From the IMG/VR virus record IMGVR_UViG_3300025073_000006: a DNA stretch of 64,000 nt; one strand, 5' to 3'. Made by a program: the position numbers and the translations under genes. Shown here piece by piece: positions 2,356 through 36,014 of the stretch. Numbering within the stretch: the stretch's first letter is position 1; each line of letters begins with the position of its first letter. The notes under the pieces were generated by a model. The model made no database searches. It saw only the letters and a program-made list of their open reading frames with translations, and was not told the origin of the DNA. The DNA is from a virus.

Positions 2356-2726
2356 AGCTCACCCCCGCCCAGGCCCGCCGCCGCGACCGCAAGATCGCGC
2401 GGCGCCGCCATGCCCGCACGCTCCGAATCTTCGCTTCGCAGGTCGCCGCCCTGATGCCCGAGGAGCCCGAGTGGGTCGGCGCCGATCCCGCGGCGCCCGA
2501 GGACGCACCGCCCGCGGGTCGAGCGGTGTTCGTGGACGCCGCCGGCGAGGGCCTGGACATCCTGCTCGACTGGGCGACCGACCCCGAGGTGTACCGCCCG
2601 CCGATCCCGTCGCCAGAGGAGCCGCGTCCGCCGCGCGCCAAACCCCACTATCCCAGGGTGCCCCTCATGCTGGCGCTCCTGCTCGCCGCCGCGTCGGGCT
2701 CGGGCGGGCCGGGCGGTGAGCGGTGA
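2352..2726 (+). CDS. Hypothetical protein, Arg-rich N-terminus, hydrophobic C-terminal segment
   Basis: GTG 2352 overlaps the upstream stop (GTGA) and is in frame with ORF 2274..2726. Confidence 0.5.
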   Translation: MKLTPAQARRRDRKIARRRHARTLRIFASQVAALMPEEPEWVGADPAAPEDAPPAGRAVFVDAAGEGLDILLDWATDPEVYRPPIPSPEEPRPPRAKPHYPRVPLMLALLLAAASGSGGPGGER

Positions 2727-16600: not shown

Positions 16601-19600
16601 GTGTTCTTGAGCTTGGACGGGATGGCGCGACCCAGGACGTCGACGAACGCGGCGGCGGCGGACGGCGACACGCTGGCGGTGCGCCGGGTGCGGCGGGTTG
16701 CGGCGCCGGCCTCGACGTCCAGGGCCAGCTCCTGCAACCGGTTCACCTCGGCGAAGGTGATGGTGTCGAGGTTCGCTGCCGGGTCGAGCAGGCGCTCAGG
16801 GACCAGCGACCGGCCGTAGATGGTGGCGATGGGTTCCGACGCGAGTTGGCGGGCGTAGATGCGCAGGCCCGACTGCTGAGCGGGCGTCAGGCGCACACTG
16901 GCGTCGCCCTCCCGCGCCGTCGCCACCAGGTTGGCCGGGGTGTCGCCGAGCGCGCCCGCGAGCCGGCTCAGGGCGGCCTTGCGGACGCGGCCCAGCCTCG
17001 CCTTGGGGATGACGGTGCGCGGGGTCAACGTGACCATGTCGACGCCGATCATCCACTTACGGGCGTCCTCGACCACCATGTAGGCCGCGACCTTGCTGAC
17101 CAGCTCGTCGAGCGGGACCTGGTCGCCAACCTCGAGGCCGAGCTCCTGCAACAGCTCCTCGTCACGCACCGCGGTCCGCTTGGCCTCGCGCGCCTGTCCG
17201 GCCTTCCGGATCTTCTCCTCGACGGCGTACTCGGGCCCGGGGTCGACACGGACGATCGGGAAGTCGGGCCGTCCAGCCTCACCGATGACGACGAGGCGAC
17301 GCTGAGCCACGCCCTCGGGGCGGAGCAGGCGATCCCACGAGGCGCGAACCTCGGCGGGGAGCTCGACCTGCTGGCCCCGGAATTGCGCCCACGTCTCACG
17401 CAGGCGTTCACCGACCTCGGCGACCGCGCGCCCGAGCGCGCCCGTGGGCTGCATCCGGAGCTCGACGTAGCGACGGAAGGCGTCGGCGGCCTGGTCCATG
17501 CCGAGGCGCGTCAGCACCGGCTCGCCCGGGGTCGCGCGCAGGACGTTCTCGACGGTGAGCACGTCGGGTTCGATGCGCGTGCCGTTCATGTCCTCGACGT
17601 GGGTTTCGAGGCCGAGCGCCGTGGCGATCTGCGCGGGGCTCTCGCCAGCGTTGGCGCGCTGGTGGATGTCGTCGACCATGTGCTGGGGCAGGCTGTCGTA
17701 GTAGACGGCGAGCAGGGCGCGACCGTCCTCGCCGATGAACTCCTGGAGGAGGTGGCCGTTCTCGTGCAGGAGGGTGCGCCAGTCAGCGCCCCTGAAGAAT
17801 TCCAGGAGCCAGCGGGCGTTGCCGGGCGTGCCGGTGCCAGCGGCGCCGAAGAACTGGCCGGTGAGGGGGGCGCCCGGAGCGCGGCGGGAGTGGGTGATCC
17901 TGGGGTCACTGGTCGGCCTTTCGTTTGCGATGTCCTTGATCTGCTCTGGCTTGAACACCACGAACGAAATTGGCGCTCCCTCCGGCGACGGGTCGGTCAT
18001 GACGACGCTGTCGTAGCCCATGTGCTCGGCTGCTTTCACGAAGTCGTCTTGGTAGTTCATGTACCAGTTCTGGCTTCCCTCGTTGTGTGCGGCACGGGCC
18101 GCATCGATCTCGCGCGACCGCACCGGCATCGCCTCATCGAGCGCGGCCTTCAATGCCGGCGACTCACTAAGCAGCGTGTTCTCAATGTCGTACTCATCGA
18201 TGGCGTCGTAGTCGATGGCGTCGCGGAGGGCGTCAGGGTTGCCGACGAGTGGTTCGCCGGCCTGTTCGGCGAGGTCGTCCACCCACGCCTTGACCGCCGC
18301 GTCACTGCCGTACAACTTCGTCGCCTCGGCTGCGAGCCACTCACGGAAGTCGGAGTTCTCCATGTTGCGCATCTCGCCGTATCGGCCCAGAACTACACGC
18401 CCAGAGTCGTCATCCCAGATGGCCTCCTTCGCCACCGCCTCAAACACAGCCGGATCGTTGAAGTCGGCCGGGTTTTCCATCCGCAGGTACACCTCGTACC
18501 GACGCCCAACACCATCGCCGCCGCCCCGGTAGAAGTCAGCGGTGCGCGCATCTGGCGAGAAGAAGTAGCCGTAGGCAGTGTCCTGCTGCCTGAACTCATC
18601 AATGTTGTCGAACCGTGAGCCATGGAACGCGCGGACGATGGCGCCGCCTTCGGGGATGGCCTCGACGTCGTCGAAGTTGATGACCGGAAGACCGCGACTC
18701 CACTCCTGGAACTCCGGGGTGCTCGGGGCACGGCGACTGAACTGCGCCTGCCCCTGTTCCAGCACCGACCGCCTCATCTCGGGCGTGAGGCGGATCATGT
18801 GGACCGGATCCGCGATCCTGGTCGTCTGGGCGTAGTCGAGGCCCGCGAGGTCAGGGTCGCCGTCTTGCGCCGCCCGACTCACGTAGCTGGCGGCGTCTTG
18901 CTCGGTCCCGAATTGCGCAACGTCCTCACCCGTGGACTGCCTGAATACGTGCCAGTTTTCGGCGGGCATGTCACGAGTCAGGCCGATGTCGCCGACCTCG
19001 ACCCTCGCCCCCCACTTCGCCGCGTACTTGTTCATCCACGCGGGGAGCATCTTGTCGTAGAACCCGATCATCCCTTGGCCTCCGACCGTGAGGTCGGGGC
19101 CCTTCAGGGATCCGGACTGCTCGGGCGACGCCATGATGGCCTTCACCATGTCGCCGCCGATGACGCCCTTCATCTCGGTGGCGGACTTCGCGTCGTTGTG
19201 GACGACCCTGCCGTCCTTGATGGCCTCGATGACGATGCGGGACTCCGCGCCTGGGCCCATGCTGGCCGTTATCGCCGCCTGCTCCTTAGGGGTCAGCACA
19301 CTCCACGGCTCACCGTACTCGTCCATGGCTCGCGTCTCGCGAGCGTCGCGCCACAAGTAGGGCGACATCGGCTCTTTCCGCCACCGGATCTCGTCGACCA
19401 CCTTGCGCACCTGGTCTTCGTACCGCTTGACCTGCTGAACGCCGGTGGTCCAGGACACCGCGTCGTAGTCGTTTTCGGCGGCAAACCTCAGCATCCGCTT
19501 GAGGACCATCTCGTGCCAGGTCTTCGCGAAGGGGGCGTCTGGGACCCGGTTGGCGTTGAAGGCGTCGAACTCGTTCCTCGCCCACTCATCGCGGGCCGCC

Positions 19601-22600
19601 TCGCTGCGTTCCAACTGCCGATCCGCCATGGCGCGCAGATCATCCGGCGTCATCAGGCGGCCACCGAGGTAGAGGCCGGAGGGGACGTTCGGCGCTCCAC
19701 CAGCAAGTTCGAACCGCTGGTCGAACGCCCGACGAAGGGCGCTGATCGCCTCGCGTTTGCGGTCGAAGATATCACCGGCCGCGTCGGCCCACGCTTGCGT
19801 GTCACGCGTCCACTGTTCCACCTGCTCCGGTGGGGCGTCGCTCGGCATATTACGCGGCCGCGGCGTGGTGGTTTCGTACTGAGTGACCGCGTTGGCGGCG
19901 CTCTCGTAGGCCTCGATGGCGTCGAGTTGTGCCTGGTGCGCGGCTGTGCGCTCAGCCAGCGCGACAGTTTCCCTTGCCCGCAGCGCCTGCTCCATCTCGC
20001 CCGGCAACTCTTGTGTCTTGTACCCCTTCTCCCGCCCGGCCTGGTGCAGGTCGCTCTGCACCTCCTCGATGTGGAGGATCTTCTCGCCGTTGGGCCCCAC
20101 GCGGTCGTTGAACCGGACGTGGGCGAGGAGGTTCTCGCCTTCGCCGGAAGCGGGGAAGTGGGAGGAGCGGTACGGCGGCGGGCTTATGCGATCATCTTGC
20201 GCCTTCGCCAGTCGCAATTGCGCGTCCCTGTGCCCTTGCGGCCACACCCCGGTTTGGTTCGCGATTAACACACCCTCTTCCACTTGTCGCCTGAGGCGCG
20301 CGATCCGTAGGTCCATGTTCGCTTGCGTCATGCGTAGAAGCAACCCGCGCGGCATCTTGAACAGCAGCTCGCGGTAGTTCTCGCTGTCGCCGGACAGGAC
20401 GAGGCTGGCGTACTGTGCCGGCCCTTCCGACGGCGCGAACGTGCCATCTTGGAGCAACTCCGACACGTCGATCCGCTCGTGCTCACCGTCGCGGGTCCTG
20501 ACGTCGACGTATTCGTCCCAGTCCAGGCCGGTCCAGTTCAACGCGGCCGACTCAACCGCCGCCTCCAGTTGGGCGATCTCGTCGTCGGTCAGCCTCGCGT
20601 CCGGCACGTCCGACGTGTCTGTCGCGTCGGGTTCCGCGTCCTCAAGCGCGTCAACGGCCGCGTCGTGTTGATCATCGGCTCGCTGGATCAGGTCCTCCAG
20701 AAGCGAGCGAACCGGCTCCCACGTCGGGGAGTCACCATAGTTGTTTTCGATCGACACGGACTCGTCGAGGTAGTCCTTGGCGTTGTCGATGTCCTGCCAG
20801 CCCCTCCGTAGCGCCGCCACAGCATCCCGTCCGCGGCTCGCGGCTCGTCTCGCGTCTCGCGCCACCTTTCGTTCCACGTCGCGAGCCTTCTCGATCGCGT
20901 CTTCCATGTCCGACGGGTCGACGTTGTACCGGTCCATCAGCGCACTCGACGGCGTCCCCAGCACCACCTCCCCCAACTCGACCTTGTTCTTGTCCAGGTA
21001 CGCCAGCACCTCGGCCTTCGTGACCGTCTTCTTGCCCTCCAGGAACTCGTTGAGCCGCGTCCACTTCACCTCGTCGACCTTGACACCGGCCGGGCCAGCG
21101 AACGAGGCCACACCGCCCACACGGGCCGCGTGCGCCTCAGCCTCGGCGCCCTGGTTGAGCGGGTACGTGGCGAGCATCTTGCCGTCGCGCATCACCGGCT
21201 CGTTGCCCTTCATGACCGGCTTGCCGTCCTTCACCTCGGGGACGCGCTCCTTGACCTGCCACTTACCCAGCGCGCCACGAAGTTGGTCCGGGGTGAACCG
21301 GTCCTGCTTGAGGCCCTCGACGGCGCGGCGCAGGCCCGAGTACCAGATCGGGGCGGGGTCGACGCGGCGGCTGAACTGGGGACGCTGCCCATCAGGCCAG
21401 TAGCCCCACTCGTGAATCGAGTCCCCGTTGGTGAAGATGTCCGCCGCCTTCACCCGGGCGCTCAGGATCGTGTAATCGCCGCGCAGCGCCGATTCCCCGT
21501 GGTCCTTCGCGTAGGCCTTCGTGATGGTCACCCAGTCGCCCGGGTTGATGCGCCGCGCTTCGTTGGGCGGGGCCTGCCGTAGTCGCTCCAGCTCGGCGCC
21601 CAGGCGGTCGTACTCGCCCGGGTCGCTTGCGCCGCGCTTGAGGATCCGCGCCATCCGATGCTCGATGTCGCCGACCCGCTCTGCGTTGTCCTTCGGCACC
21701 GCGCGGTAGATGGTGACCTTGGCATCGGGCCGCCCCTTCATGGCGCGGGCTATCGCGAACGCCTGGCGGTCCAGAACCTCGTCACCGGTACCGTAGTAGC
21801 GGACACCGTTCGGCCCGTAGACATCATCTGGGTACACCACGCCGGCGCCGGTCAGGTCGTGTAGCGGCGCGCCCTCTTCTGGGCCAGTGGGCCGGTGCTC
21901 GCCAGCGTAGTCGTCCTCAGCGCGGCGGCTGAACCTGGCCCGCGTCCGCTCGCTCACGGTGTCCCCGCCCCTCACGTCGATCTCGGTCACCTCCATGTCG
22001 GCCCACTCGCCGGGCAGGGCGAGGTCAGGCAGGGGCGTCGTCGTCGCAGCCTGTTCCCGGGGCGCCATGGCCCCTGTGTCGGCCTGGGCGACCTCGGGCC
22101 TGTACCGACCCCTGAACCGCGCCAGGTCCAGCGCCGTGGCTCCGGTATACGTGGACTCCGGCAGCTCGTCCATGCCCACGCCGTCCCACGCGGCCCGATG
22201 ACCGGCCGTGACGACCTCGTCGTAGAGGCCTTCGCGGGGCGGCTCGGTGCCGAACGCGAGGGCGTCGAAGTTGCGGCGGCTGAACTGCGGCTGGCCCTCG
22301 GCGATGGACTCGCGCATGGCGTCGGTCACCGGCAGGTGGTGGACCTTCTCCGACCTGTCGTGGGCGAATGATGTGTCCTTGGCGATGGGGACCTGAATGT
22401 CCGTCATCCCAGGTTTCGCGTCCCACTTCGCCGCGTACCGCTTGAGGAACCCCGGGATCATGCCGTCGTACAGGTGTTCGGCCCATTTGCCGCCGATCTT
22501 GAGGTCGAGCCCGCTGATGGACGGGTAGCCTTGGCTCTCGTCCTCCTGGACGAGGTCGTAGTTGATGCGCTCCTCAGCGCCTGCGCGATCAACGAACCGC

Positions 22601-25600
22601 TCGGGCGCGAAGTCCGGGTGGTTCATGTCCAGCGTGTAGTCGCCGTTCGTGTTGATGATCGCGAAGGCGTCCGGATCGTCAGGGTGCTCGACGACCTCGA
22701 AGAGGCTGTTGCGGTCGTACTCGCGCCGCTTCACCTCCTCACGCAGTTTCGCTCCCGGTTTCTCACCGATGTACTCGTCGATCTCGTCGATGCCCACGGT
22801 TTTGTTGATGACCGTCTTGCCATCGTGGTCGTAGGCCAGAAGGGTTTCGCCATTCGGGTCGTAGGCGACCTCGCGCACCCGCTTCGCCAAGTCGTAGCGG
22901 TCCTGCTGCGTCTTCCCGGTCGTCCACGTCACGCCGTCATAGCCGTCCTCGACGGCCATTCGCAGCGCCACCTTCATCGTGAGCTCGTGCCAGTCCTGGG
23001 GAAAGGGGGTGGGGGGCACGCGCTCACTGTTCTTCACGGCGATTTCGCGCTGCATGTCCAGGCGTTCGCGGTTGAGCACCCTCGCCCCGTAGGATGGTGC
23101 CTCGTCGCGTCCGACTGTTCCCTTGCCGACCTTGACCTCGCGGCCATCGGGGTGGCTGACGATCCACTGGTACTCGGTCTCAGCGACGGAAAGGTCTTCT
23201 GGTTGAACCTCGACAGGAAGCCCGGTGTCGGCCTCGTCGCCGCGCACGCCCTTCTTCCGCACGTCCGCCGCCCAGTCCGACTGCACCTCCTCAACGTGCA
23301 GTAGCCGCTCGCCCTTGGGGCCGAGGCGGTCGTTGACGCGGAGGTGGGCGAGGAGGTTCTCACTCATGCCGCTGAAGTGGGGAGCCTGGTATGTCGGTTG
23401 CTGGTCGCGCCACTGGTTCTCACGGTCGCTGTTCACCCGTCCGAGGGCGTCGGCGATGGCGGCTTCACGGGTCGGGTGCAGCCCGTTCCACGGCCGGGCG
23501 TGGATCTGTCCCGGAGGCGTGATGCCCCACTGCCGGGACTCGGGCTGGTTCCGGTCGACGATCGGTTCGTAGCCCTCTGGCAGCGTGGTCAGCGGTTCGG
23601 GGGGCGTCCCTCCTGGGTTGAGGCGCAGCAGCACCTCCCGGTAGTTCTCGCCGCCCGGAAGAACGTGGGCGTCGTACTGCGGCTTCGTGATGGCACCGTA
23701 TGCGAGTTCCACTTCACGGCGCGCGTCCTGCCATTCGCTCGACGCGAGCAGGTAGTCCGTGAGCGCCTCCTCGAAGGCATACGCCTCTACATACTTGTTC
23801 AGGCGGTGCAGCAGGTCAGAGACCTCGCTGGGGCCGATCCTGGTCCCGTTGTTGAGGTCGATCATCGGCTGGGCGCCGTCCATGTAGACGCCCATGATTC
23901 GCGTGTCCTGCTGGCTCGGGTAGATCGCGATGCCCTCGACCGCGCTGCGCACCTTCGCCTCTGCCGCCACCTTCCGCCGATGAACCTCCTGCATCGCGGT
24001 CTTGGCGGCCTCGGCGCGAGGGCTCTTGCCGCCCAGCACCTTCTCCTCGATCTCCACGCGGTTCGACTTGACGAACGCCCGGACCTCCTCCCGGGTCACC
24101 ACGCCCCTTCCCGCCGCCCAGGCTTCGATGCCCAACCAGTCGAGTTCGGACTGCTTGACGCCCGGCCGCTTCTTCAGGCTGGCGACCAGCGACCGGCCCT
24201 TCATCTGCTTGGCGGCACCGAAGGCGTCGTCGACGCTGCGCTCGACCGCTGAGTAGAAGGTGTCCTGGGCGCGGCGGGAGAACAGGGCCGGGCCATACTC
24301 CACGTCGGCCTCGGCATAGAACCGCTCCCACTCGGCCCGCAGCTCGGGATCGGCGGCCATCAGGCGGGTGGCGATCTCGCCCTCCCAGAACCGCCGGTCG
24401 TGCGCAGGGTCGCGCATGAACCCGGGCTCGAGGCCGGCCGCGCGCTCGATGTCGGCGAGAATGTCAGCGGTGCCTATGTTCACGCTCGGCCCAACGTCGC
24501 TGCCCCACTCGTGAAGCGCCTTCAGCAAAGCGGGCCCGCTGACGCCGTCCGTCACCGGCATGGCGGCGATGGCCTCGTTGGTGCGCTGCAACCAACGGTC
24601 GTACTCGGGGCCACGGCGAGAGTACAGGATGCGTGGGTCGCCGGGGTCGAAGGTGCCCCGGTTGCTGATCGACTTGATCTGCGTGGGCTCGAATGCCGCC
24701 ACCACCATCGGGTTGCGCACGGTGAACTTGCCGAGTTGTTCGGCACTTGACGCGACGATGAGGCCATCATGCCCGGCGGCAATCTGCTTCTCGCGCCACG
24801 TCGACCACCACGCCGTGTCGCCGCCGTGGGCCTCGCGAAGCGAATTCCACTTCCCCTGCGTCAACACCAGAGGATTCGCGATCTTGAGATAGACCGGCAT
24901 CGTGCTGTCGCCGAACATGGAGGCGAACTCGCCGTCATCGGTGAACCAGAACCCCACCTTTGACGGCCCCTTGCCGGACTTCGCCCTGTCGAATGCGTCG
25001 ATATCTGCGGCGTCGGTTCCGTGGTACACCACCAGCGGCTGTCCCTTGTCGTCCACCACCTTGCTGTCGCCGAACCACCGCTTGAACCACGGCGAGTCCG
25101 TCTTGAGGCTGGTCCAGGCATCGCGGGCTCGCGCGAAGGGATCCTCGGCGGCCGCGTAGGCGATGATGGAGGCGTCCCCACCCAGCGCCGTCCGCGCCGC
25201 CTTGAACGTCGCCCCGGTCGATACCACGTTGTCGACCAGGAACACCCGGCCCTCGGGGACTGTGGCGTTCTCGCGGAGCCGCATCGTCATCTCGCTGGCG
25301 AGCATGTCGGGGCCGCCGGACACCTTGCGGTCGTAGCTCCGGGCCCTGGCCTCGCCCGTGAGCACGTCGGCCACAGTCGCCCCGGACCGCTCGGCGATGG
25401 CCTGGGCGAGCGCGAGGTTGACGGTCGTGTCGCCCTTCGACGACGGCACCGGCACCAGGACGGCGCCCTTCGGCACACGCGGGGCCAGCAAGTCGGCCGC
25501 CGCGTCGATGCTCTCGGGCGAGCCGTTCTTGATGGCGTGCGCGACCGTGCGGCCCTCGTTGTACGGGACGCCGATGATGGCGTCGTCGGGCAGTTCGGCG

Positions 25601-28600
25601 GCGTCGGCCCGCTTGCTGAACCTCGGGCTCGCCGCGACCCCGCCCGTCTCCTCGAACACGCCCTTCCGCGCGAGCCCGGCCTGCTGCCTGAGCGAGGCCA
25701 CGGCGAGCGCCTGGATGTCGGCCTCGGTGAGGTCCAGGTACTTCCGCAGCGTCCCGAACGTCCGGTAGATCCATGCCCGGATCTGTGCCAGCAGGCGCCG
25801 CACCAGGGGCGTGTCGGGGTGGAACTCGACGAGGTAGGCCAGCCGCTCGCGCCGCACCGCCAGGTCCCGAGCCGGGCCAGGGTCTCCATCGACGCCAGCC
25901 TCGGCCGTGCGCGCCACCTCGGCGGCGAGGACCGTGTTCTTCTTGAGCAGCGCGTCCACCCGGTCGATCAGCGCCAGTTCGGCCGCCTTACCACCGAGCA
26001 TCGTCGCCATGCCGGCGTGAACACCGACCTCGTGGAGCAGGACGCGGGCCACCTCGCCCTCGGACATCTCGCGCACGTTGAGGTAGGTCTTGCCCTCGTG
26101 AAACACGCCCTTGACGCCGCGCATGTCCGACGACTTGAGCCCATCCGGCAGGGTGTCGAGGTCGTCGACAAGGACCACCTGCTCGGCCTCGAGCAACGCC
26201 TGGGCGTCTTGGCCGAACCGCTCGGTGATGATGGCGCGGGCCTGCTCGGCGGACTCCATGCGAGGTCCGAACTCCCAGGGCCGGTTGCGCGCGACGAAGC
26301 CGATGCCTCGACGCTGCTCGGCGAGGCCCATCCTCCCCGGCTGAACCGGCCCCTGCACGTCGGCCACACGGAACTGCACGTCGTCGAAGTGCCCTGCCAG
26401 CGACGTGATCTCGCCCGCCTCCAGCCGCCTCCACGCCGTCACCTCGTCGTAGGCCAGCATCATGCGGGCGGTGTCGTCGTCGATGATGCCGGTGCGGACC
26501 ATCTCCTCGAAGGCGTTCAGCCTCTCGGCGTAGCCCTGGGACGCCCGCATCTCCAACGACTCGGGGTCGACTTTGTCAAGCCGGGCCCGCCAGTTGTCGA
26601 TGGTCTGGCTGCGGGCCACCTTCGCCCGCTCGCCGAACTCGGCCAGCGTCTTGCGGACCGTCGCCTCGTCCTGGCCGGTGAGGTGCCGGATCAGGGTGGT
26701 GGCGTTCTCGCGCTGCGCCTTCGACATGACGTCGAGCGGGTTCATGCCCTTGCGCACGGCGTCCCGCATGACCTTGGCGGTGACGTGGTTGGCGGCGTCG
26801 AGGGGGTCGCGGATGGTGATCTTCGCCCGTCCGGCGGCGTCCTCGGCGTCGAGGAGGCGCCCGATCTGGACGGCCTCGGGAGCGAGCCCTGCCCATGCCC
26901 CCTCCAGCGCAGCCGTCATGCCCGCCCCGCGCAGATCGCGGTACAGTCCCGCGCCAACCCAGCCGCGACGGATCCCGGAGCCGAGGCCACGCAGCGCGAT
27001 GTCCTCGCCGGGGAACACGAAGTCGGCGATGATCCCGGAGGCGTTCAGGAACTTCCACTGCCAGGAGTCCTCGGCGAGGCCCATCCCGCGCCCGATGTTC
27101 TGCATCCCGAACATCCAGCCGGTTTCGCCCGTCTCGGTGCCCGCCAGAACGCGGGCGGTCCAGCCAGCCGACTCGAAGTCGCGCTGCGGCACGTAGTCGG
27201 ACGGGCCCCACCGCTGAAGCCCCCAGTCGACCCCTGCCAGGACCACCTCCTCAGCCATCGCCGAGGGCACACCGAAGGGGACGCGCATGGCCCAGCCGAA
27301 CGTCGTCTCGCCCCGGGCGCTCATGCTCACGGCCCCAAGGAACTCCTCGGCGTAGTCGAGCGCAGCGCCACCCGTCCGCTCGTAGGCCTCCCGGTTCGCG
27401 TCCACGCCGGCCTTCATCGAGTCGACGGTGATGGCCTGCTCGAGCGTGGCCTTGGGCAGGTCTGCCAGCGTGGCGCGCCGCCAGAACCGATTCCACACGG
27501 CGGCGACGGCCTCGTCGCGGTCGGCATCCGGCCCCTTCTTGCCCGCCGCCCGCAACGTCGGGTCGCTCGTGGCGTGGATGCCGTCCAGGTCGGCGATGAG
27601 TTCGAGCACGAGCGGGGAGGCGTCCTCGCCATCACGACGACCATCGGCCACGACGCGGGGCATCGTCGGCGCCTCGCCACCCACCCACACCCCCGACGGC
27701 AGGTTGCGGATCTCCAACGCGGGGAACAGCGGCGCCAGGTCCGCCGTCGTCTCGGCCGCCTCAATAATTTCCGCGTTCGTGAGCAGGTCGTTGTGCCGCG
27801 ACCCGTCGCGCTGGAGCTGTTCGTAGGCCTCCCGCGCGTCCTCGGGCAGCAACTTCGCCACGACCGGCGAGACGGGGCCCTCGACGGCGCGCACCAGGTC
27901 CCGGACGGCCTTGGGCGCCATCACGTTGGGCAGGAAACCCCATTCGGGATCCGCGTCTGCCGCGACCTCGCCCGCCACGGTGATCGTGCGCAGCTCGACA
28001 GGCTTGAGCCCCTCCTTGATCTCGGCCAGCGCCTCGTCCTTCCGGGGGTGGTTCCACGGCGCGATGGGCTCCTCGCCACGCGCCCGTCTCGCCATCCCCT
28101 CTTCTGAGTCGAGGATGCTGCTCCAGGTGTCGCGGATGACGCTCGCGATGGCCGATCCCTCGGGGATTTCTGCGCCCTCGGGCGGTTCGAGGCGATCCCA
28201 TGTGGCCCTTTTGATGGCGGCGAGTACGGCGCGGGGGCCGTCCCGGAGATTGTCCTCGTAGTCGGCCGCCCTCTCGATGCCGGCCGCCGTTGCCTTCTCC
28301 GCGGTCCACACCTCGCCTTCCGGCCGCCCGGTTTTCACCATGCCCGGCGCCATCGCACGCAGGGCCACATACCCGGCGTTGTCGCGCGGTGTCCCCTTGG
28401 CCTCGAAGGCGTCGAGCAGGAAGCCTGGCAGCGTCTCCGCGCCCTCAGCGTAGCTGATGTCGCGCTGAATCCGCTCCCACTCCTCACGCCTGACTGTCTC
28501 CTCGTCCAGGCTGCGGTCGGATTCGAGGCGCGTCTTCACCCTGGCCTCGGCGTAGTCTTCCAGCGCCGCCCTCAACTCGGGCTCGGACTTCGCGATGGGC

Positions 28601-28821
28601 GGGTCGCCGGGCGCCTCCTGCCGTTCGATGGGGCTGAAGTCGTCATCGTCGTCATCGTCGTCGTCGACGCCCACGTCAAGGGGCGCGACCGCGGCCCGAT
28701 CCATGGGTTCGTCGATCGGCTCGGCGCGCATCCGGTCGACCATCGCCTCAGCCTCGGAGCGAGGGAGCTTCGTGCGGGCCATGAGGTCGCGGATCGTGCG
28801 CTCGCGGTCGGTCGATGCCAT
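13630..28821 (-). CDS. Giant polyvalent virion (ejection) protein, 5,063 aa
   Basis: Single uninterrupted ORF. HEVGVH (26017-26034), ComF-like PRTase (VFLVDNVVSTGATF, 25204-25245), two ART-like modules (YHG 25018-25026, FHG 18619-27), duplicated module with H[VI]EEVQSD (23272-98, 20047-73), HENGH (17752-66), poly-Asp run (28639-65), C-terminal region with TM-like segment. Confidence 0.9.
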   Translation of the reverse strand: MASTDRERTIRDLMARTKLPRSEAEAMVDRMRAEPIDEPMDRAAVAPLDVGVDDDDDDDDDFSPIERQEAPGDPPIAKSEPELRAALEDYAEARVKTRLESDRSLDEETVRREEWERIQRDISYAEGAETLPGFLLDAFEAKGTPRDNAGYVALRAMAPGMVKTGRPEGEVWTAEKATAAGIERAADYEDNLRDGPRAVLAAIKRATWDRLEPPEGAEIPEGSAIASVIRDTWSSILDSEEGMARRARGEEPIAPWNHPRKDEALAEIKEGLKPVELRTITVAGEVAADADPEWGFLPNVMAPKAVRDLVRAVEGPVSPVVAKLLPEDAREAYEQLQRDGSRHNDLLTNAEIIEAAETTADLAPLFPALEIRNLPSGVWVGGEAPTMPRVVADGRRDGEDASPLVLELIADLDGIHATSDPTLRAAGKKGPDADRDEAVAAVWNRFWRRATLADLPKATLEQAITVDSMKAGVDANREAYERTGGAALDYAEEFLGAVSMSARGETTFGWAMRVPFGVPSAMAEEVVLAGVDWGLQRWGPSDYVPQRDFESAGWTARVLAGTETGETGWMFGMQNIGRGMGLAEDSWQWKFLNASGIIADFVFPGEDIALRGLGSGIRRGWVGAGLYRDLRGAGMTAALEGAWAGLAPEAVQIGRLLDAEDAAGRAKITIRDPLDAANHVTAKVMRDAVRKGMNPLDVMSKAQRENATTLIRHLTGQDEATVRKTLAEFGERAKVARSQTIDNWRARLDKVDPESLEMRASQGYAERLNAFEEMVRTGIIDDDTARMMLAYDEVTAWRRLEAGEITSLAGHFDDVQFRVADVQGPVQPGRMGLAEQRRGIGFVARNRPWEFGPRMESAEQARAIITERFGQDAQALLEAEQVVLVDDLDTLPDGLKSSDMRGVKGVFHEGKTYLNVREMSEGEVARVLLHEVGVHAGMATMLGGKAAELALIDRVDALLKKNTVLAAEVARTAEAGVDGDPGPARDLAVRRERLAYLVEFHPDTPLVRRLLAQIRAWIYRTFGTLRKYLDLTEADIQALAVASLRQQAGLARKGVFEETGGVAASPRFSKRADAAELPDDAIIGVPYNEGRTVAHAIKNGSPESIDAAADLLAPRVPKGAVLVPVPSSKGDTTVNLALAQAIAERSGATVADVLTGEARARSYDRKVSGGPDMLASEMTMRLRENATVPEGRVFLVDNVVSTGATFKAARTALGGDASIIAYAAAEDPFARARDAWTSLKTDSPWFKRWFGDSKVVDDKGQPLVVYHGTDAADIDAFDRAKSGKGPSKVGFWFTDDGEFASMFGDSTMPVYLKIANPLVLTQGKWNSLREAHGGDTAWWSTWREKQIAAGHDGLIVASSAEQLGKFTVRNPMVVAAFEPTQIKSISNRGTFDPGDPRILYSRRGPEYDRWLQRTNEAIAAMPVTDGVSGPALLKALHEWGSDVGPSVNIGTADILADIERAAGLEPGFMRDPAHDRRFWEGEIATRLMAADPELRAEWERFYAEADVEYGPALFSRRAQDTFYSAVERSVDDAFGAAKQMKGRSLVASLKKRPGVKQSELDWLGIEAWAAGRGVVTREEVRAFVKSNRVEIEEKVLGGKSPRAEAAKTAMQEVHRRKVAAEAKVRSAVEGIAIYPSQQDTRIMGVYMDGAQPMIDLNNGTRIGPSEVSDLLHRLNKYVEAYAFEEALTDYLLASSEWQDARREVELAYGAITKPQYDAHVLPGGENYREVLLRLNPGGTPPEPLTTLPEGYEPIVDRNQPESRQWGITPPGQIHARPWNGLHPTREAAIADALGRVNSDRENQWRDQQPTYQAPHFSGMSENLLAHLRVNDRLGPKGERLLHVEEVQSDWAADVRKKGVRGDEADTGLPVEVQPEDLSVAETEYQWIVSHPDGREVKVGKGTVGRDEAPSYGARVLNRERLDMQREIAVKNSERVPPTPFPQDWHELTMKVALRMAVEDGYDGVTWTTGKTQQDRYDLAKRVREVAYDPNGETLLAYDHDGKTVINKTVGIDEIDEYIGEKPGAKLREEVKRREYDRNSLFEVVEHPDDPDAFAIINTNGDYTLDMNHPDFAPERFVDRAGAEERINYDLVQEDESQGYPSISGLDLKIGGKWAEHLYDGMIPGFLKRYAAKWDAKPGMTDIQVPIAKDTSFAHDRSEKVHHLPVTDAMRESIAEGQPQFSRRNFDALAFGTEPPREGLYDEVVTAGHRAAWDGVGMDELPESTYTGATALDLARFRGRYRPEVAQADTGAMAPREQAATTTPLPDLALPGEWADMEVTEIDVRGGDTVSERTRARFSRRAEDDYAGEHRPTGPEEGAPLHDLTGAGVVYPDDVYGPNGVRYYGTGDEVLDRQAFAIARAMKGRPDAKVTIYRAVPKDNAERVGDIEHRMARILKRGASDPGEYDRLGAELERLRQAPPNEARRINPGDWVTITKAYAKDHGESALRGDYTILSARVKAADIFTNGDSIHEWGYWPDGQRPQFSRRVDPAPIWYSGLRRAVEGLKQDRFTPDQLRGALGKWQVKERVPEVKDGKPVMKGNEPVMRDGKMLATYPLNQGAEAEAHAARVGGVASFAGPAGVKVDEVKWTRLNEFLEGKKTVTKAEVLAYLDKNKVELGEVVLGTPSSALMDRYNVDPSDMEDAIEKARDVERKVARDARRAASRGRDAVAALRRGWQDIDNAKDYLDESVSIENNYGDSPTWEPVRSLLEDLIQRADDQHDAAVDALEDAEPDATDTSDVPDARLTDDEIAQLEAAVESAALNWTGLDWDEYVDVRTRDGEHERIDVSELLQDGTFAPSEGPAQYASLVLSGDSENYRELLFKMPRGLLLRMTQANMDLRIARLRRQVEEGVLIANQTGVWPQGHRDAQLRLAKAQDDRISPPPYRSSHFPASGEGENLLAHVRFNDRVGPNGEKILHIEEVQSDLHQAGREKGYKTQELPGEMEQALRARETVALAERTAAHQAQLDAIEAYESAANAVTQYETTTPRPRNMPSDAPPEQVEQWTRDTQAWADAAGDIFDRKREAISALRRAFDQRFELAGGAPNVPSGLYLGGRLMTPDDLRAMADRQLERSEAARDEWARNEFDAFNANRVPDAPFAKTWHEMVLKRMLRFAAENDYDAVSWTTGVQQVKRYEDQVRKVVDEIRWRKEPMSPYLWRDARETRAMDEYGEPWSVLTPKEQAAITASMGPGAESRIVIEAIKDGRVVHNDAKSATEMKGVIGGDMVKAIMASPEQSGSLKGPDLTVGGQGMIGFYDKMLPAWMNKYAAKWGARVEVGDIGLTRDMPAENWHVFRQSTGEDVAQFGTEQDAASYVSRAAQDGDPDLAGLDYAQTTRIADPVHMIRLTPEMRRSVLEQGQAQFSRRAPSTPEFQEWSRGLPVINFDDVEAIPEGGAIVRAFHGSRFDNIDEFRQQDTAYGYFFSPDARTADFYRGGGDGVGRRYEVYLRMENPADFNDPAVFEAVAKEAIWDDDSGRVVLGRYGEMRNMENSDFREWLAAEATKLYGSDAAVKAWVDDLAEQAGEPLVGNPDALRDAIDYDAIDEYDIENTLLSESPALKAALDEAMPVRSREIDAARAAHNEGSQNWYMNYQDDFVKAAEHMGYDSVVMTDPSPEGAPISFVVFKPEQIKDIANERPTSDPRITHSRRAPGAPLTGQFFGAAGTGTPGNARWLLEFFRGADWRTLLHENGHLLQEFIGEDGRALLAVYYDSLPQHMVDDIHQRANAGESPAQIATALGLETHVEDMNGTRIEPDVLTVENVLRATPGEPVLTRLGMDQAADAFRRYVELRMQPTGALGRAVAEVGERLRETWAQFRGQQVELPAEVRASWDRLLRPEGVAQRRLVVIGEAGRPDFPIVRVDPGPEYAVEEKIRKAGQAREAKRTAVRDEELLQELGLEVGDQVPLDELVSKVAAYMVVEDARKWMIGVDMVTLTPRTVIPKARLGRVRKAALSRLAGALGDTPANLVATAREGDASVRLTPAQQSGLRIYARQLASEPIATIYGRSLVPERLLDPAANLDTITFAEVNRLQELALDVEAGAATRRTRRTASVSPSAAAAFVDVLGRAIPSKLKNTLTKAFIVERPMAGYPDPHVQDIVERHSRELGGAQDWVRNGVRAQRAMRPWYSRMGFKDVGSIMESLRGVANELTPPVARNGHDVGIVDILFAQHQALSGDAPNVDAILNPVRLVALQDALDSWRHGLSPEEEAALRILDSYRGRTAVNLAPAELLDVEDAVSRIAVGLGDRVRVVELRANEIAIILTGSSEANILATLQWYDRVALYKAFYEGRWLPEHGPQVPLPNRPPTLFDIMAGMGRATGLADKSLWRRIKDAVQGRRTFKMDPNVALAEAIVRMRAHDILGRMADELAEYGLLGPERGRDVDVGLPLRDRFYDHVVAALNARVAWNDSTALDQYTGSVVRRGPPAPHQDLPTVDRRRLAGPPGAFHGHPDMAALLYADDLMDRWGWKRGEGLWTAMDLDGRRIMVPQMFQEQIKLALDEAATVGTARRSGQVVGTIAPLREPAPGAAVGSRAALHAENALLVVFDAVPKLFSRIKVGMVVGILVPNVFSYIGNILDGQWQWFQRDGLRAVFGAQVNPARQKLVKDVFIGLWGEQRAIEGRGVLVTKDGRVYSAEQLRQMARSYGLNSSFVHAESARALTDDIRREHRTWIENVLLPFEWWQEQLVSAYTAIDNYGRLHVFFDHLAKGADPAEAAAAARMALYDYGNMTDFEQRVMRQVSLFYAYERANQTLFWWTLLNHPSRVAGQVRLIRDMQQLYLEDEYRIVRPENYERQLMVAYRRFIEDGVRVDVRGVDVEADPLRRLGLAFVTRQQPAVDGFTLWGEIISWALSAFDDPKAAARVANRLPPWWQAPIVSATRVDPSTSYNIDSGNFNTVPPWFIALDRALTGGLIVDDFLGVRPVDEPDPAKRYDVDIPYRWVVGQGNELRWWGIQNLGHALPGMGRGISTMQALDRSFDHGPVERLVRGTLATREALGLTPGKTHPYIRETLEGPRVGRTPGDELVGFFIAKPILVDTAQELRRRDTQRAAGKAGADKRELKRADNP
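17925..18640 (-). other. ART-like module 2 inside the giant protein
   Basis: VRAFHGSRFDNIDEF....GYFFSPD...ADFY...YEVYLRMENP...GYDSVVM....SFVVFKPEQIKDIAN. Confidence 0.45.
24660..25035 (-). other. ART-like module 1 (ART-PolyVal-like pattern) inside the giant protein
   Basis: VVYHGT..ADIDAFD....GFWFTDD...ASMFG..VYLKIANP...GHDGLIV....VVAAFEPTQIKSISN. Same pattern as module 2. Confidence 0.45.
25145..25470 (-). other. ComF/type-I phosphoribosyltransferase-like domain inside the giant protein
   Basis: VLVPVPSSKG...LALAQAIAERSG......R.......M.........EGRVFLVDNVVSTGATFKAARTAL. The PRPP-loop-like acidic-hydrophobic stretch followed by STGAT is typical of type I PRTases. Confidence 0.6.
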
Positions 28822-35448: not shown

Positions 35449-36014
35449 CAGTGCCCCCGCCACACGGCGATGAGTTCAACCAGGTCCAGAACGCAGTTGT
35501 CGCCCGTGGGGCTCGTCGAATCAGTCAACCATGTTCGCGCCTGAACGGTGATGGTTGCTGTTCCTGCCCCCACGGTGGCCTCCCCGAACAGGAACGTCGA
35601 CCACGGATCCAGCGCCCCGGCGAATTGCGGCGCGAGCGCCACCTCGGTACCCGCGCAGACGATCCGGAACGCCACGTTGTTGCTACTGCTGCCGGTGGTC
35701 CATGCCCACGTCCCGCCCCATTCAATCTCGATAACGCCATCCGACGGCACTTCGATCGACATGGTCTGGACGGTCTGCCAACCGATACGCTGCCCGTCGA
35801 TCGATGCCCCGCCCGGGTCGGCGGTGATATCGCCAGCGATGACGTTGAACGTGCCCGGCACGATGTCCTCGGTGTCGACGGACACCTCGGGCAGGTTGTC
35901 GCGGTCGACGTGGCCGTTGAACTCGGCGGCGAGGGCGGCGTGGTTGAGGTTCCAGTCGCGGGCGTCGGCGACATCGCCGGCCTCGACATGCCTCACGCGG
36001 TACCGGAACGCCAT
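35448..36014 (-). CDS. Virion/tail structural protein (188 aa)
   Basis: ATG 36014 shares one nt with the upstream TGA. The 5' part of track ORF 35448..36740 is a shadow. Confidence 0.7.
   Translation of the reverse strand: MAFRYRVRHVEAGDVADARDWNLNHAALAAEFNGHVDRDNLPEVSVDTEDIVPGTFNVIAGDITADPGGASIDGQRIGWQTVQTMSIEVPSDGVIEIEWGGTWAWTTGSSSNNVAFRIVCAGTEVALAPQFAGALDPWSTFLFGEATVGAGTATITVQARTWLTDSTSPTGDNCVLDLVELIAVWRGH

What the first reader, a model, noticed from the sequence alone, without database searches (positions are those of the whole stretch)
24660..25470. PRPP-binding PRTase fold fused to an ART-like module in an injected protein
**Seen:**
- Between the linkers at residues 1068 and 1400 there is a ComF/type-I PRTase-like domain (VLVPVPSS.., PRPP loop VFLVDNVVSTGATF).
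- It is followed directly by a module with YHGT...F..F, GFWFTDD, VYLKIANP, GHDGLIV and FEPTQIK.
- That module recurs at 17925-18640 (FHGS, GYFFSPD, VYLRMENP, GYDSVVM, FKPEQIK).

**Established knowledge:** type I PRTases use PRPP. H-Y-E type ADP-ribosyltransferase domains occur in polyvalent proteins.

**Inference:** this is a nucleotide/NAD-directed effector pair delivered with the DNA. It could modify host targets or counteract nucleotide-based or NAD-depleting defences. The specific chemistry is unknown.
Basis: partly seen in the sequence, partly recalled or inferred. Interest (0 to 1): 0.7.

Follow-up and report, generated by a model that had tools for sequence, protein, structure and literature searches.

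The report
Phage giant protein's PRTase–ART effector module
A 5063-residue phage protein, probably packed in the virion, carries a ComF-like phosphoribosyltransferase-fold domain directly followed by an ADP-ribosyltransferase domain; both domain types were already described in such "polyvalent" proteins in 2017, so this is a well-formed new example, not a new kind of system.

Summary
Every quoted motif lies in one 5063-aa ORF (window 13630-28821, minus strand).

- **ADP-ribosyltransferase (ART) domains.** Residues 1257-1387 match Pfam ART-PolyVal (E 1e-23). A second, divergent copy spans residues 3385-3644.
- **Phosphoribosyltransferase (PRTase)-like domain.** Residues 1075-1250 look weak as a single sequence (Pfam PF00156 E 0.018). 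They nevertheless belong to a family with 927 representatives, in giant multidomain proteins and 150-200-aa solo proteins.
- **Fold evidence for that family.** Its profile matches ComF at 99.1% hhalign probability (E 9e-19). It hits only type I PRTases in the PDB. An AF2 model (pLDDT 83) retrieves ShosT-PRPP, H. pylori ComF and adenine PRTases.
- **Departure from the canon.** The family signature is Asp-Asn, not Asp-Asp (152 of 159 instances, none DD). It has no ComF zinc ribbon.
- **PRTase-ART pairing.** PRTase followed by ART recurs, including as free-standing 320-423-aa proteins. Most PRTase-bearing proteins have no ART, so the pairing is facultative.

Iyer et al. 2017 already described both domains in polyvalent proteins and called the PRTase role enigmatic.

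Verdict: new member of a known kind. The chemistry is unresolved and interest is modest.

The parts
13630..28821 (-). Giant ORF of 5063 aa, a polyvalent-type protein in the phage late or virion gene block
   Evidence: ORF list and translation. GC3 is 0.89. Neighbouring genes on the same strand hit PHROG internal virion protein (36014-38188) and terminase (46513-48132).
25609..25620 (-). Linker motif FSKR (residues 1068-1071), the N-terminal boundary of the module
   Evidence: One of eight [FYH]S[RK]R motifs, against 0.12 expected by shuffling.
25072..25599 (-). ComF-related type I PRTase-fold domain (residues 1075-1250) of the 'DN' family found in polyvalent proteins
   Evidence: The HMM envelope is 1075-1250, E 6e-55 against the family profile. 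There are 927 homologues. hhalign against ComF gives 99.1%, E 9e-19. The family profile hits only type I PRTases in the PDB. The AF2 model has pLDDT above 90 over most of the domain, and its top Foldseek hits are ShosT-PRPP, 1vch, HP1257 and H. pylori ComF.
25426..25461 (-). VLVPVPSSKGDT (residues 1121-1132): core strand plus the loop in the position of the PPi loop
   Evidence: P1124, P1126 and G1130 are invariant in 42 and in 53 family members. In the hhalign alignment this stretch matches ComF 'VPVPLH..R...R..NQ'. The ComF Arg, Asn and Gln residues are not kept.
25315..25359 (-). GEARARSYDRKVSGG (residues 1155-1169): loop in the position of the PRTase flexible loop
   Evidence: The family consensus is G..R.S.Y..KK.G, with S1161 and G1169 at least 90% conserved. 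pLDDT is lower here, 74-79. The assignment by position is inferred.
25204..25245 (-). PRPP (5-phosphoribosyl-binding) loop VFLVDNVVSTGATF (residues 1193-1206), with D1197-N1198 in place of the canonical Asp-Asp
   Evidence: D1197 and G1203 are invariant; N1198 and T1205 are at least 90% conserved. 152 of 159 domain instances are DN and none is DD. The loop aligns to the ComF VLVDDVYTTGAT motif and to PyrR and APRT PRPP loops.
25096..25140 (-). Low-confidence connector between the two domains (residues about 1228-1242); it contains no linker motif
   Evidence: pLDDT is below 50 at module residues 161-172. No [FYH]S[RK]R lies between residues 1068 and 1400.
24625..25095 (-). First ART-PolyVal domain (residues 1243-1399), with H1267 on strand 1, W1292 on strand 2 and D1352 on strand 5
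   Evidence: Pfam PF18760 E 1.3e-23 over residues 1257-1387. Over 216 family instances the columns read H 205/207, strand-2 Y 86 / F 68 / W 31 / H 20, and D 198/202. BFVD Foldseek hits are ART-PolyVal proteins, down to E 4e-10.
24613..24624 (-). Linker motif YSRR (residues 1400-1403), the C-terminal boundary of the module
   Evidence: Free-standing ART-PolyVal and PRTase-ART proteins end at the equivalent tail, for example ..DDRFSRNPRR* and ..ARISYNRSPR*.
17890..18669 (-). Second ART-PolyVal domain (residues 3385-3644), with an insert of about 110 aa; H3400, F3420 and D3604
   Evidence: Pfam PF18760 E 5e-16 in two stretches. The jackhmmer envelope is 3385-3644. Catalytic columns are kept. It is only 20-27% identical to copy 1.

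Best explanation
Residues about 1071-1399 of a 5063-aa phage polyvalent protein form a two-domain effector module.

**Composition (shown)**
- The N-terminal half is a ComF-clade type I PRTase-fold domain. Its 5-phosphoribosyl-binding loop is intact, but the acidic pair is Asp-Asn.
- The C-terminal half is an ART-PolyVal domain that keeps its His, aromatic and Asp active-site positions.

**Likely mode of action (inferred)**
- The protein is made late, packed into the virion and ejected into the cell with the DNA.
- The module probably acts as one unit of about 36 kDa. No linker motif separates its two domains, and free-standing homologues have the same size and ends.
- In the cell, the ART domain uses NAD+ to ADP-ribosylate host macromolecules early in infection.
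- The PRTase-like domain binds PRPP or another 5-phosphoribosyl ligand such as a nucleoside monophosphate. It then either consumes or transfers that ligand, perturbing nucleotide pools as ShosT does, or uses ligand binding to help handle the entering DNA, as ComFC does.
- The two domains are co-delivered. They are not demonstrably steps of one pathway.
For: **Domain identities**
- ART-PolyVal matches at E 1.3e-23, with H1267 and D1352 kept and W1292 within family variation.
- The PRTase-like family has 927 representatives.
- 24 of 42 members hit PF00156 at E<=0.1, best 2.5e-7.
- The family profile hits only PRTases in the PDB, from E 3.5e-4.
- Its nearest named relatives in 5.8 billion proteins are ComF family proteins, E 8e-9 to 7e-6.
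- hhalign against ComF gives 99.1%, E 9e-19, over 140 columns.
- The AF2 model has pLDDT 83. Its top Foldseek PDB hits are ShosT-PRPP 8zvc, 1vch, 4paw and ComF 7p0h, all at probability 1.00.

**Polyvalent-protein context**
- Partner domains of this PRTase in 53 mid-size proteins are ART-PolyVal in 11 and Pol-beta NTase in 4. RadC, InPase, MuF, ddrB-ParB, NUDIX and pentapeptide also occur. This is the published polyvalent repertoire (PMC5512222).

**Module as a unit**
- The closest PRTase homologues are themselves PRTase-then-ART proteins: P0001 (320 aa), P0003 (385 aa), P0078 (375 aa) and P0047 (423 aa). The pair also sits inside a 7058-aa viral giant protein, P0009 (locus L011).
- The two domains are adjacent in 20 of 35 proteins that hold both, against 13.8 expected, P about 0.005.

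**Precedents for the PRTase role**
- ShosT binds PRPP, and its toxicity depends on coupled PRTase and pyrophosphatase domains (PMC11961720). P0063 similarly combines InPase with this PRTase.
- ComFC binds PRPP, nucleoside monophosphates and ssDNA. Its PRPP site is needed for DNA translocation (PMC9005727).
Against: - No activity, packaging or ejection has been shown for this protein or any member of either family. No experimental paper on ART-PolyVal or on the polyvalent PRTase was found.
- The second acidic residue of the PRPP motif is Asn in 152 of 159 instances. Canonical PRPP-Mg catalysis may be impaired or altered.
- The ComF PPi-loop residues (H..R...R.NQ) are not kept.
- As a single sequence the PRTase domain stays below every curated cut-off: PF00156 14.8 against 26.3 bits; NCBIfam 25 against 143 bits.
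- 66 of 101 multidomain PRTase-bearing proteins have no ART-PolyVal. Only 1 of 10 IMG/VR loci has an ART within 3 kb. Functional coupling is therefore not required.
- Virion localisation rests on weak PHROG hits. Pfam found nothing in ten neighbouring ORFs.
Confidence: 0.6

Rival explanations
1. The PRTase-like domain is not an enzyme. It is a ComFC-like, ligand-gated DNA-handling module. It binds PRPP or a nucleoside monophosphate together with the incoming phage DNA, and protects or helps translocate that DNA during ejection. The ART acts independently.
For: - ComF is the closest named family.
- ComFC binds ssDNA and protects it from nuclease. Its PRPP site is needed for DNA transport, and no catalysis has been shown (PMC9005727).
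- Family-wide replacement of the second acidic residue by Asn fits binding without canonical catalysis.
- Solo members occur on a small mobilisable plasmid and in phage early-type regions next to pentapeptide and T7 Gp5.9-like genes.
Against: - The ComF zinc-ribbon domain, essential in ComFC, is absent. There is no Cys in residues 1068-1256.
- Near-invariance of loop residues (P1124, P1126, G1130, S1161, G1169, D1197, N1198, G1203, T1205) is as expected for a catalytic site.
- Fusion with an inorganic pyrophosphatase domain in P0063 suggests a reaction that releases PPi.
Confidence: 0.25
2. The two domains are steps of one NAD+/ADP-ribose pathway. The 'DN' PRTase-like domain binds or processes an ADP-ribose-type ligand, such as free ADPR, an ADPR-derived immune signal or the ADP-ribosylated product, instead of PRPP. 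The module would thereby counter NAD-depleting or ADPR-signalling defences, or build a compound modification.
For: - ART-PolyVal is the commonest partner, in 11 of 53 mid-size proteins. An R-S-E-type ART (ADPrib_exo_Tox) and a NUDIX domain also appear as partners.
- Adjacency of the two domains is enriched.
- A solo PRTase gene lies two genes from two ART-PolyVal genes and near a NAPRTase gene. Another lies near a Macro-domain gene.
- ADPR contains a ribose-5-phosphate that a PRPP loop could hold (inference).
- The invariant Asn suggests a non-canonical ligand.
Against: - ART is the most common enzymatic domain in polyvalent proteins generally (PMC5512222), so co-occurrence has a high baseline.
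- Most PRTase-bearing proteins lack an ART.
- The gene-neighbourhood cases are anecdotes.
- No type I PRT-fold protein is known to me to act on ADPR (own knowledge).
- The model's pTM of 0.55 gives no confident interdomain interface.
Confidence: 0.12
3. The PRTase resemblance is a chance match to a common glycine-rich nucleotide-binding loop, or the giant ORF is an artefact of GC-rich DNA.
For: - Single-sequence scores are weak: PF00156 E 0.018 and PDB phmmer E 0.11.
- The word-indexed search with the single domain found nothing.
- Long spurious ORFs are common at 70% GC.
Against: - The match covers the whole domain, not only the loop. hhalign aligns 140 columns, E 9e-19. NCBIfam APRT aligns residues 21-157, E 9e-6.
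- The AF2 model folds as a PRT with pLDDT above 90, and its listed Foldseek PDB hits (top 50) are all PRT-fold proteins.
- There are 927 homologues.
- The ORF has coding-type codon-position GC and three domains with significant family matches.
Confidence: 0.02

Closest known systems
PRTase domain of polyvalent proteins (Iyer, Burroughs, Anand, de Souza, Aravind 2017, J Bacteriol; PMC5512222, section 24)
   Same: - It occurs in giant multidomain phage and plasmid proteins and as solo genes in both contexts.
- Partner domains are the published polyvalent set: ART, InPase, MuF, Pol-beta NTase, RadC and ddrB-ParB.
- It is related to ComFC and has a conserved Arg after the second strand, R1158 in the G..R.S.Y consensus.
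   Different: - The paper speaks of a "characteristic catalytic DD motif". In the family recovered here the motif is DN in 152 of 159 instances and never DD. I could not read their alignment file to see whether this is a wording issue or a different subgroup.
- MuF fusions, which the paper calls the simplest multidomain architecture, appear in only 1 of 53 mid-size proteins here.
ComF/ComFC competence proteins (TIGR00201; PF18912 + PF00156; H. pylori ComFC, PDB 7P0H)
   Same: - It is the best named relative by profile-profile comparison: 99.1%, E 9e-19, including the N-terminal helices ahead of the PRT core.
- ComF 7p0h ranks fourth in Foldseek.
- The ..TG.T part of the PRPP loop is conserved.
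   Different: - There is no 4-Cys zinc ribbon.
- The PPi loop lacks ComF's invariant H..R...R.NQ.
- The motif is DN, not DD.
- The TIGR00201 score is 16.5 bits against a cut-off of 233.55.
- It is embedded in a phage giant protein, not a competence operon.
ShosT toxin of the ShosTA anti-phage system (PDB 8ZVC; PMC11961720)
   Same: - It is the top Foldseek hit for the PRT domain.
- It is a conflict-system PRTase that binds PRPP, has an unknown acceptor, and is coupled to a pyrophosphatase. The polyvalent family likewise occurs fused to InPase in P0063.
   Different: - ShosT is a host defence toxin with an N-terminal PPase domain.
- Sequence identity to ShosT is 12%.
- Here the domain is on the phage side and fused to an ART.
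ART-PolyVal (PF18760), Tox-ART-HYD2 clade
   Same: - The score is well above the gathering cut-off.
- H, aromatic and D active-site positions are kept in both copies.
- The conserved N-terminal F.RWFGDSKVVD motif and the C-terminal QIKS..N.GTFDP tail are present.
   Different: - The strand-2 Tyr is Trp in copy 1 and Phe in copy 2. Both are frequent family variants: W 31 and F 68 of 208.
- Copy 2 carries an insert of about 110 aa.
Phage T4 Alt (virion-packaged, injected ART)
   Same: It is the functional model: an ART delivered with the DNA that modifies host RNA polymerase and other proteins (PMC5512222, section 9).
   Different: - Alt belongs to the R-S-E clade, not the H-Y-D clade.
- Alt is a single-function protein, not part of a polyvalent giant.
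- There is no PRTase partner.

Membership tests
Type I PRTase (PRT) superfamily | Significant sequence-profile similarity across the whole core domain | tested here: met
   - hhalign against ComF gives 99.1%, E 9e-19, over 140 columns.
- The family profile hits only PRTases in the PDB, best E 3.5e-4.
- 24 of 42 members hit PF00156 at E<=0.1.
- The window sequence alone is below the Pfam cut-off, 14.8 against 26.3 bits.
Type I PRTase (PRT) superfamily | PRT fold: a parallel beta-sheet core flanked by helices, with the PRPP loop between a hydrophobic strand and a helix | tested here: met
   The AF2 model with a 40-sequence alignment has pLDDT above 90 over most of the domain. It places strand 126-133 (RVFLVDNV) before helix 137-146. 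All 50 listed Foldseek PDB hits are PRT-fold proteins, most at probability 0.97-1.00.
Type I PRTase (PRT) superfamily | PRPP motif: four hydrophobic residues, two adjacent acidic residues, then ..(S/T)(T/G)G.T | tested here: not met
   The hydrophobic run and STGAT are present. The acidic pair is D1197-N1198. The family is DN in 152 of 159 instances and DD in none. The motif is therefore only partly met.
Type I PRTase (PRT) superfamily | PPi loop and flexible loop that complete the PRPP site | tested here: inconclusive
   Conserved loops lie at the expected positions: PSSKGDT with invariant P, P and G, and G..R.S.Y..KK.G. No ligand modelling was possible.
Type I PRTase (PRT) superfamily | PRPP binding or phosphoribosyl transfer activity | not testable with these tools
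   This needs biochemistry.
ComF family (TIGR00201; PF18912 + PF00156) | N-terminal 4-Cys zinc-ribbon domain | tested here: not met
   There is no Cys in residues 1068-1256 and no PF18912 hit.
ComF family (TIGR00201; PF18912 + PF00156) | Score above the family cut-off and the conserved PLH..R...R.NQ and DDV.TTGAT motifs | tested here: not met
   TIGR00201 scores 16.5 bits against a cut-off of 233.55. The ComF invariants H160, R163, R167, N170, Q171 and D237 are replaced. The domain is related to ComF but is not a member.
ART-PolyVal (PF18760) | Score above the Pfam gathering threshold | tested here: met
   Copy 1 scores 84.8 bits and copy 2 scores 60.2 bits, against a cut-off of 31.2.
ART-PolyVal (PF18760) | Active-site His on strand 1, Tyr or another aromatic on strand 2, and Asp on strand 5 | tested here: met
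   Copy 1 has H1267, W1292 and D1352. Copy 2 has H3400, F3420 and D3604. The family columns read H 205/207, aromatic 205/208 and D 198/202. Strand assignment comes from the AF2 model.
ART-PolyVal (PF18760) | NAD+-dependent ADP-ribosyl transfer | not testable with these tools
   No experimental study of this family was found in the library.
Polyvalent protein (sensu Iyer et al. 2017) | Several domains of disparate biochemistry in one polypeptide, encoded by a phage or conjugative element | tested here: met
   The 5063-aa protein holds a PRTase-like domain, two ART-PolyVal domains, HExxH and HExxxH motifs and unassigned modules. The phage context includes terminase, primase/helicase and internal virion protein genes.
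Polyvalent protein (sensu Iyer et al. 2017) | Packaged in the virion and delivered with the DNA | not testable with these tools
   This is inferred from gene position only. The ORF starts 12 bp after the upstream same-strand ORF ends at 28834, and lies in a run of same-strand ORFs that includes the internal-virion-protein hit.

The most novel reading that the evidence does not exclude
The 'DN' PRTase-like family may not use PRPP at all. It may be a binder or enzyme for an ADP-ribose-type 5-phosphoribosyl ligand that works together with the fused ART. Possible roles are capturing or converting ADPR or ADPR-derived immune signals, or processing the ADP-ribosylated product. The PRTase-ART cassette would then be a previously unrecognised phage NAD+/ADPR counter-defence unit. 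The evidence does not exclude this:
- The Asn is invariant.
- ART is the commonest partner domain.
- Adjacency of the two domains is enriched.
- Neighbouring genes include ART, NAPRTase and Macro in some loci.
Probability: 0.12. Interest if true: 0.7.

Novelty: new member of a known kind. Interest (0 to 1): 0.33.

Why it matters
The polyvalent-protein PRTase domain has been called enigmatic since 2017, and I found no experimental work on it. This window offers a cleanly delimited construct of about 330 residues (1071-1399). It has a confident model and intact conserved sites, and its natural free-standing homologues of 320-423 aa show that the pair can exist as an independent protein.

Three details could guide experiments:
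- The family-wide Asp-Asn signature.
- The clear ComF relationship without the zinc ribbon.
- The recurrent but facultative pairing with ART-PolyVal.

Beyond that, the finding confirms known biology: phages load giant multi-enzyme proteins next to their virion genes. It does not open a new class.

Tried and rejected
- **Single-sequence AF2 of the module.** pLDDT was 46, which is unusable. It was replaced by a run with a 40-sequence alignment.
- **Word-indexed homologue search with the PRTase segment alone.** It found nothing. This was a sensitivity limit, not absence, because the exhaustive HMMER search found 927 homologues.
- **Word-indexed search with the family profile.** It returned only 24 proteins. 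The structure alignment therefore had few PRTase rows.
- **Family libraries.** PHROGs has no family for the PRTase domain. NCBIfam gives only sub-threshold APRT, PRTase and ComF hits.
- **Pfam on the other seven segments of the giant protein.** Nothing was significant apart from the second ART.
- **Pfam on ten neighbouring ORFs.** No hits.
- **tblastn of the C-terminal 1417 aa against phages.** No match.
- **Terminase-based searches for relatives.** None was found in GTDB genomes or IMG/VR. Conservation of the module in orthologous phages could not be tested, so I used family-level conservation.
- **The [FYH]S[RK]R linker as a general polyvalent feature.** It is not general. Each of 41 other giant proteins has at most one.
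- **The two ART copies as a recent duplication.** Rejected, because they are only 20-27% identical.
- **Foldseek PDB ranking.** PRT hits dominated it, so it gave no solved-structure match for the ART half. The BFVD search covered that half.
Full report
**1. What is there**

The finding lies inside one very long ORF, window 13630-28821 on the minus strand, 5063 aa. Its codon-position GC is 0.70 / 0.46 / 0.89, the pattern of a real gene in this roughly 70% GC sequence.

- VLVPVPSS at residues 1121-1128.
- VFLVDNVVSTGATF at 1193-1206.
- YHGT at 1266, GFWFTDD at 1290, VYLKIANP at 1310, GHDGLIV at 1350 and FEPTQIK at 1377.
- The second set at residues 3399-3629.

The two "linkers" (FSKR at 1068, YSRR at 1400) belong to a set of eight [FYH]S[RK]R motifs, against 0.12 expected by shuffling. 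The full unit is 24613-25620.

**2. Genomic context**

The window is phage-like. Most ORFs with coding-type composition lie on the minus strand. They include the following:
- A primase/helicase (PHROG E 2e-72).
- A helicase.
- A terminase (PHROG E 2e-9). Its best tblastn match is Roseobacter phage CRP-7 at 25.6% identity.
- An ORF matching internal virion and virion structural proteins (E 6e-13).

The giant ORF follows in the same direction. It starts 12 bp after the preceding 942-aa ORF ends.

The phage is an orphan:
- Pfam found nothing in ten neighbouring ORFs.
- Terminase-based scans found no close relative in GTDB genomes or IMG/VR.

Virion packaging and injection are therefore inferred from gene position and from the published polyvalent-protein model. 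They are not shown.

**3. The ART domains**

- Residues 1257-1387 match Pfam ART-PolyVal at 84.8 bits, E 1.3e-23, against a cut-off of 31.2.
- A second copy at residues 3385-3644 matches at E 5e-16 in two stretches, split by an insert.
- The two copies are only 20-27% identical, so they are not a recent duplication.

| Position | Family count |
|---|---|
| Strand-1 His | 205 of 207 |
| Strand-5 Asp | 198 of 202 |
| Strand-2 residue | Y 86, F 68, W 31, H 20 |

Copy 1 has H1267, W1292 and D1352. Copy 2 has H3400, F3420 and D3604. Both keep the family's catalytic pattern. Foldseek against viral models returns ART-PolyVal polyvalent proteins.

**4. The PRTase-like domain**

Taken alone, the sequence gives only hints:
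- PF00156 at E 0.018, below the cut-off.
- APRT in the PDB at E 0.11.
- Nothing from the word-indexed search.

The exhaustive HMMER search changed the picture. It found 927 representatives at E<=1e-3 and 430 at E<=1e-10. About 40 of the best 150 are proteins of 3000-7400 aa, and about 50 are shorter than 300 aa.

A 42-sequence alignment shows invariant P1124, P1126, G1130, D1197 and G1203. K1098, S1161, G1169, N1198 and T1205 are nearly invariant.

Evidence that the family is a PRT fold:
- 24 of 42 members hit PF00156 at E<=0.1, best 2.5e-7.
- Its profile hits only type I PRTases in the PDB: PyrR, APRT, Prs, XPRT and OPRT.
- Its nearest named relatives are ComF family proteins.
- hhalign against a ComF alignment gives 99.1% probability, E 9e-19, over 140 columns. 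The aligned region includes the helices that precede the PRT core.
- An AF2 model built with 40 sequences has mean pLDDT 83, above 90 across most of this domain.
- The model's best PDB matches are ShosT with PRPP-Mg (8zvc), a Thermus PRTase-related protein (1vch), HP1257 (4paw), H. pylori ComF (7p0h) and APRTs.

**5. How it departs from canonical PRTases and from ComF**

- The PRPP-loop acidic pair is Asp-Asn in 152 of 159 domain instances, and none is Asp-Asp.
- ComF's zinc ribbon is absent. There is no Cys in residues 1068-1256.
- ComF's invariant PLH..R...R.NQ loop is replaced by PS..G.
- Scores against TIGR00201 and NCBIfam APRT models are far below their cut-offs.
- Neither PHROGs nor Pfam has a dedicated model.

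The domain belongs to the PRT superfamily and is a sister of ComF. It is not a member of ComF or of any curated PRTase family. The ..STGAT phosphate-binding part of the loop is intact, so a 5-phosphoribosyl ligand is likely. Whether the Asn variant supports PRPP-Mg catalysis is unknown.

**6. Relation to published work**

Iyer et al. 2017 (PMC5512222) defined polyvalent proteins. They list ART as the commonest protein-modifying domain. They devote a section to a PRTase domain found in phage and plasmid polyvalent proteins and as solo genes. That domain is related to ComFC and its role is "somewhat enigmatic".

The family recovered here has exactly that distribution:
- Partner domains in 53 mid-size proteins are ART-PolyVal (11), Pol-beta NTase (4) and RadC (2). 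InPase, MuF, ddrB-ParB, NUDIX, an R-S-E ART and pentapeptide repeats each appear once.
- Solo genes sit on a small Rep3/MobC/relaxase plasmid and in phage contigs.

The paper mentions a "DD motif", whereas I see DN. I could not open their alignment to resolve this. I found no later experimental work on either domain.

**7. Is the PRTase-ART pairing meaningful?**

Evidence for a unit:
- The closest homologues of this PRTase domain are themselves PRTase-then-ART proteins. Several are free-standing: P0001 (320 aa), P0003 (385 aa), P0078 (375 aa) and P0047 (423 aa).
- One pair lies inside a 7058-aa protein on a 99.8-kb IMG/VR contig.
- Within this giant protein no linker motif separates the two domains.
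- The free-standing proteins end at a tail equivalent to the YSRR linker.
- Among proteins holding both domains, 20 of 35 have them adjacent, against 13.8 expected under random placement, P about 0.005.

Evidence against an obligate pair:
- 66 of 101 multidomain PRTase-bearing representatives have no ART-PolyVal.
- Only 1 of 10 IMG/VR loci has an ART within 3 kb.
- ART has a high baseline frequency in polyvalent proteins.

Suggestive but anecdotal neighbourhoods:
- A solo PRTase gene lies two genes from two ART-PolyVal genes and near a NAPRTase gene.
- Another solo gene lies near a Macro-domain gene.

I conclude that PRTase-ART is a recurrent mobile cassette. It is not an obligate two-step system.

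**8. Mechanism**

Shown:
- The domain identities.
- The conserved site residues.
- The module boundaries.
- The phage late-gene context.

Inferred:
- The protein is packed and ejected with the DNA.
- The ART half ADP-ribosylates host targets using NAD+, on the T4 Alt model.
- The PRTase half binds PRPP or a nucleotide.

Two precedents frame what the PRTase half then does:
- ShosT is a conflict-system PRTase that binds PRPP. Its toxicity needs coupled PRTase and pyrophosphatase domains. This mirrors the InPase-PRTase fusion in P0063.
- ComFC binds PRPP, nucleoside monophosphates and ssDNA. Its PRPP site is needed for DNA translocation, with no catalysis demonstrated.

I favour an enzymatic or ligand-consuming role slightly over the pure DNA-handling role. 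The loop residues are nearly invariant, and the family fuses to a pyrophosphatase domain. The DN substitution keeps the DNA-handling rival alive. A joint NAD+/ADPR pathway is possible but weakly supported.

**9. Verdict**

Both domain families and their occurrence in polyvalent proteins are published, so this is a new member of a known kind.

Useful additions from this work:
- The family-wide DN signature.
- The quantified ComF relationship.
- The existence of free-standing PRTase-ART proteins.
- A cleanly bounded construct for experiments.

Noticed in passing
window 13630-28821 (-): residues 1068, 1400, 1514, 2180, 2297, 2483, 3361 and 3644 (for example 25609-25620, 24613-24624, 24271-24282, 22273-22284, 21922-21933, 21364-21375, 18730-18741, 17881-17892): The motif [FYH]S[RK]R occurs eight times, mostly as ..Q.QFSRR.., at module boundaries. 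Shuffling predicts 0.12 occurrences. Each of 41 other giant proteins of at least 3000 aa with this PRTase has at most one, so the motif is specific to this lineage. It could be a protease processing site or the retained basic C-terminal tail of modules that were once free-standing. Free-standing ART-PolyVal proteins end at an equivalent tail.
   Followed up: partly
window 25660-26112 (-), residues about 903-1056; HEVGVH at residue 930: This stretch has an HExxxH motif. It is similar (27-35% identity) to parts of an 'internal virion protein with endolysin domain' of Ralstonia phage RS-PII-1. It is similarly close to proteins annotated as DarB-like antirestriction or methyltransferase in Pseudoalteromonas and Shewanella phages. 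It may be a zincin-like peptidase domain of polyvalent proteins. There is no Pfam hit.
   Followed up: partly
window about 17750-17766 (-), residue 3686, HENGH: A canonical HExxH motif (TLLHENGHLLQEF) lies just after the second ART and its linker, at the start of the 1417-aa C-terminal part. That part has no Pfam hit and no tblastn match in phages. It is a candidate embedded metallopeptidase for self-processing.
   Followed up: no
window 22276-24273 (-) and 18733-21366 (-), residues 1517-2182 and 2486-3363: Two large modules look paralogous. Both contain S.HF....ENLLAH.R.NDR.GP.GE..LH.EE.QSD and later W.E...K..LR.A.E..YD.V.WTTG..Q..RY. Neither has a Pfam hit. This is an unassigned, duplicated domain type in the same giant protein.
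   Followed up: no
L004/L005/L006 (phage contigs), genes at L004 3779-5339, 6001-6531 and 11093-11737: A solo 'DN' PRTase gene lies two genes downstream of two separate ART-PolyVal genes. The same contig carries a T7 Gp5.9-like gene, a GP88 gene and a NAPRTase (NAD salvage) gene. The PRTase and ART therefore co-occur here as separate genes.
   Followed up: partly
L001/L002 (small plasmid contigs), PRTase gene at L001 3265-3750: A 161-aa solo 'DN' PRTase, in a cluster of 76 member sequences, sits on a small Rep3 / MobC / relaxase / ParA plasmid. It lies downstream of a DUF4942 gene. The family is therefore also carried by mobilisable plasmids.
   Followed up: no
protein P0063 (803 aa): Its architecture is Pol-beta nucleotidyltransferase, then InPase (polyvalent-protein inorganic pyrophosphatase, E 3e-46), then the 'DN' PRTase. 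This repeats the pyrophosphatase-plus-PRTase coupling reported for the ShosT toxin (PMC11961720).
   Followed up: partly
whole window 1-64000: The phage appears to be an orphan. The terminase's best match in 50,697 phage records is 25.6% identity to Roseobacter phage CRP-7. Terminase peptide scans found no relative in GTDB species genomes or IMG/VR. Ten ORFs around the giant gene have no Pfam hit.
   Followed up: partly
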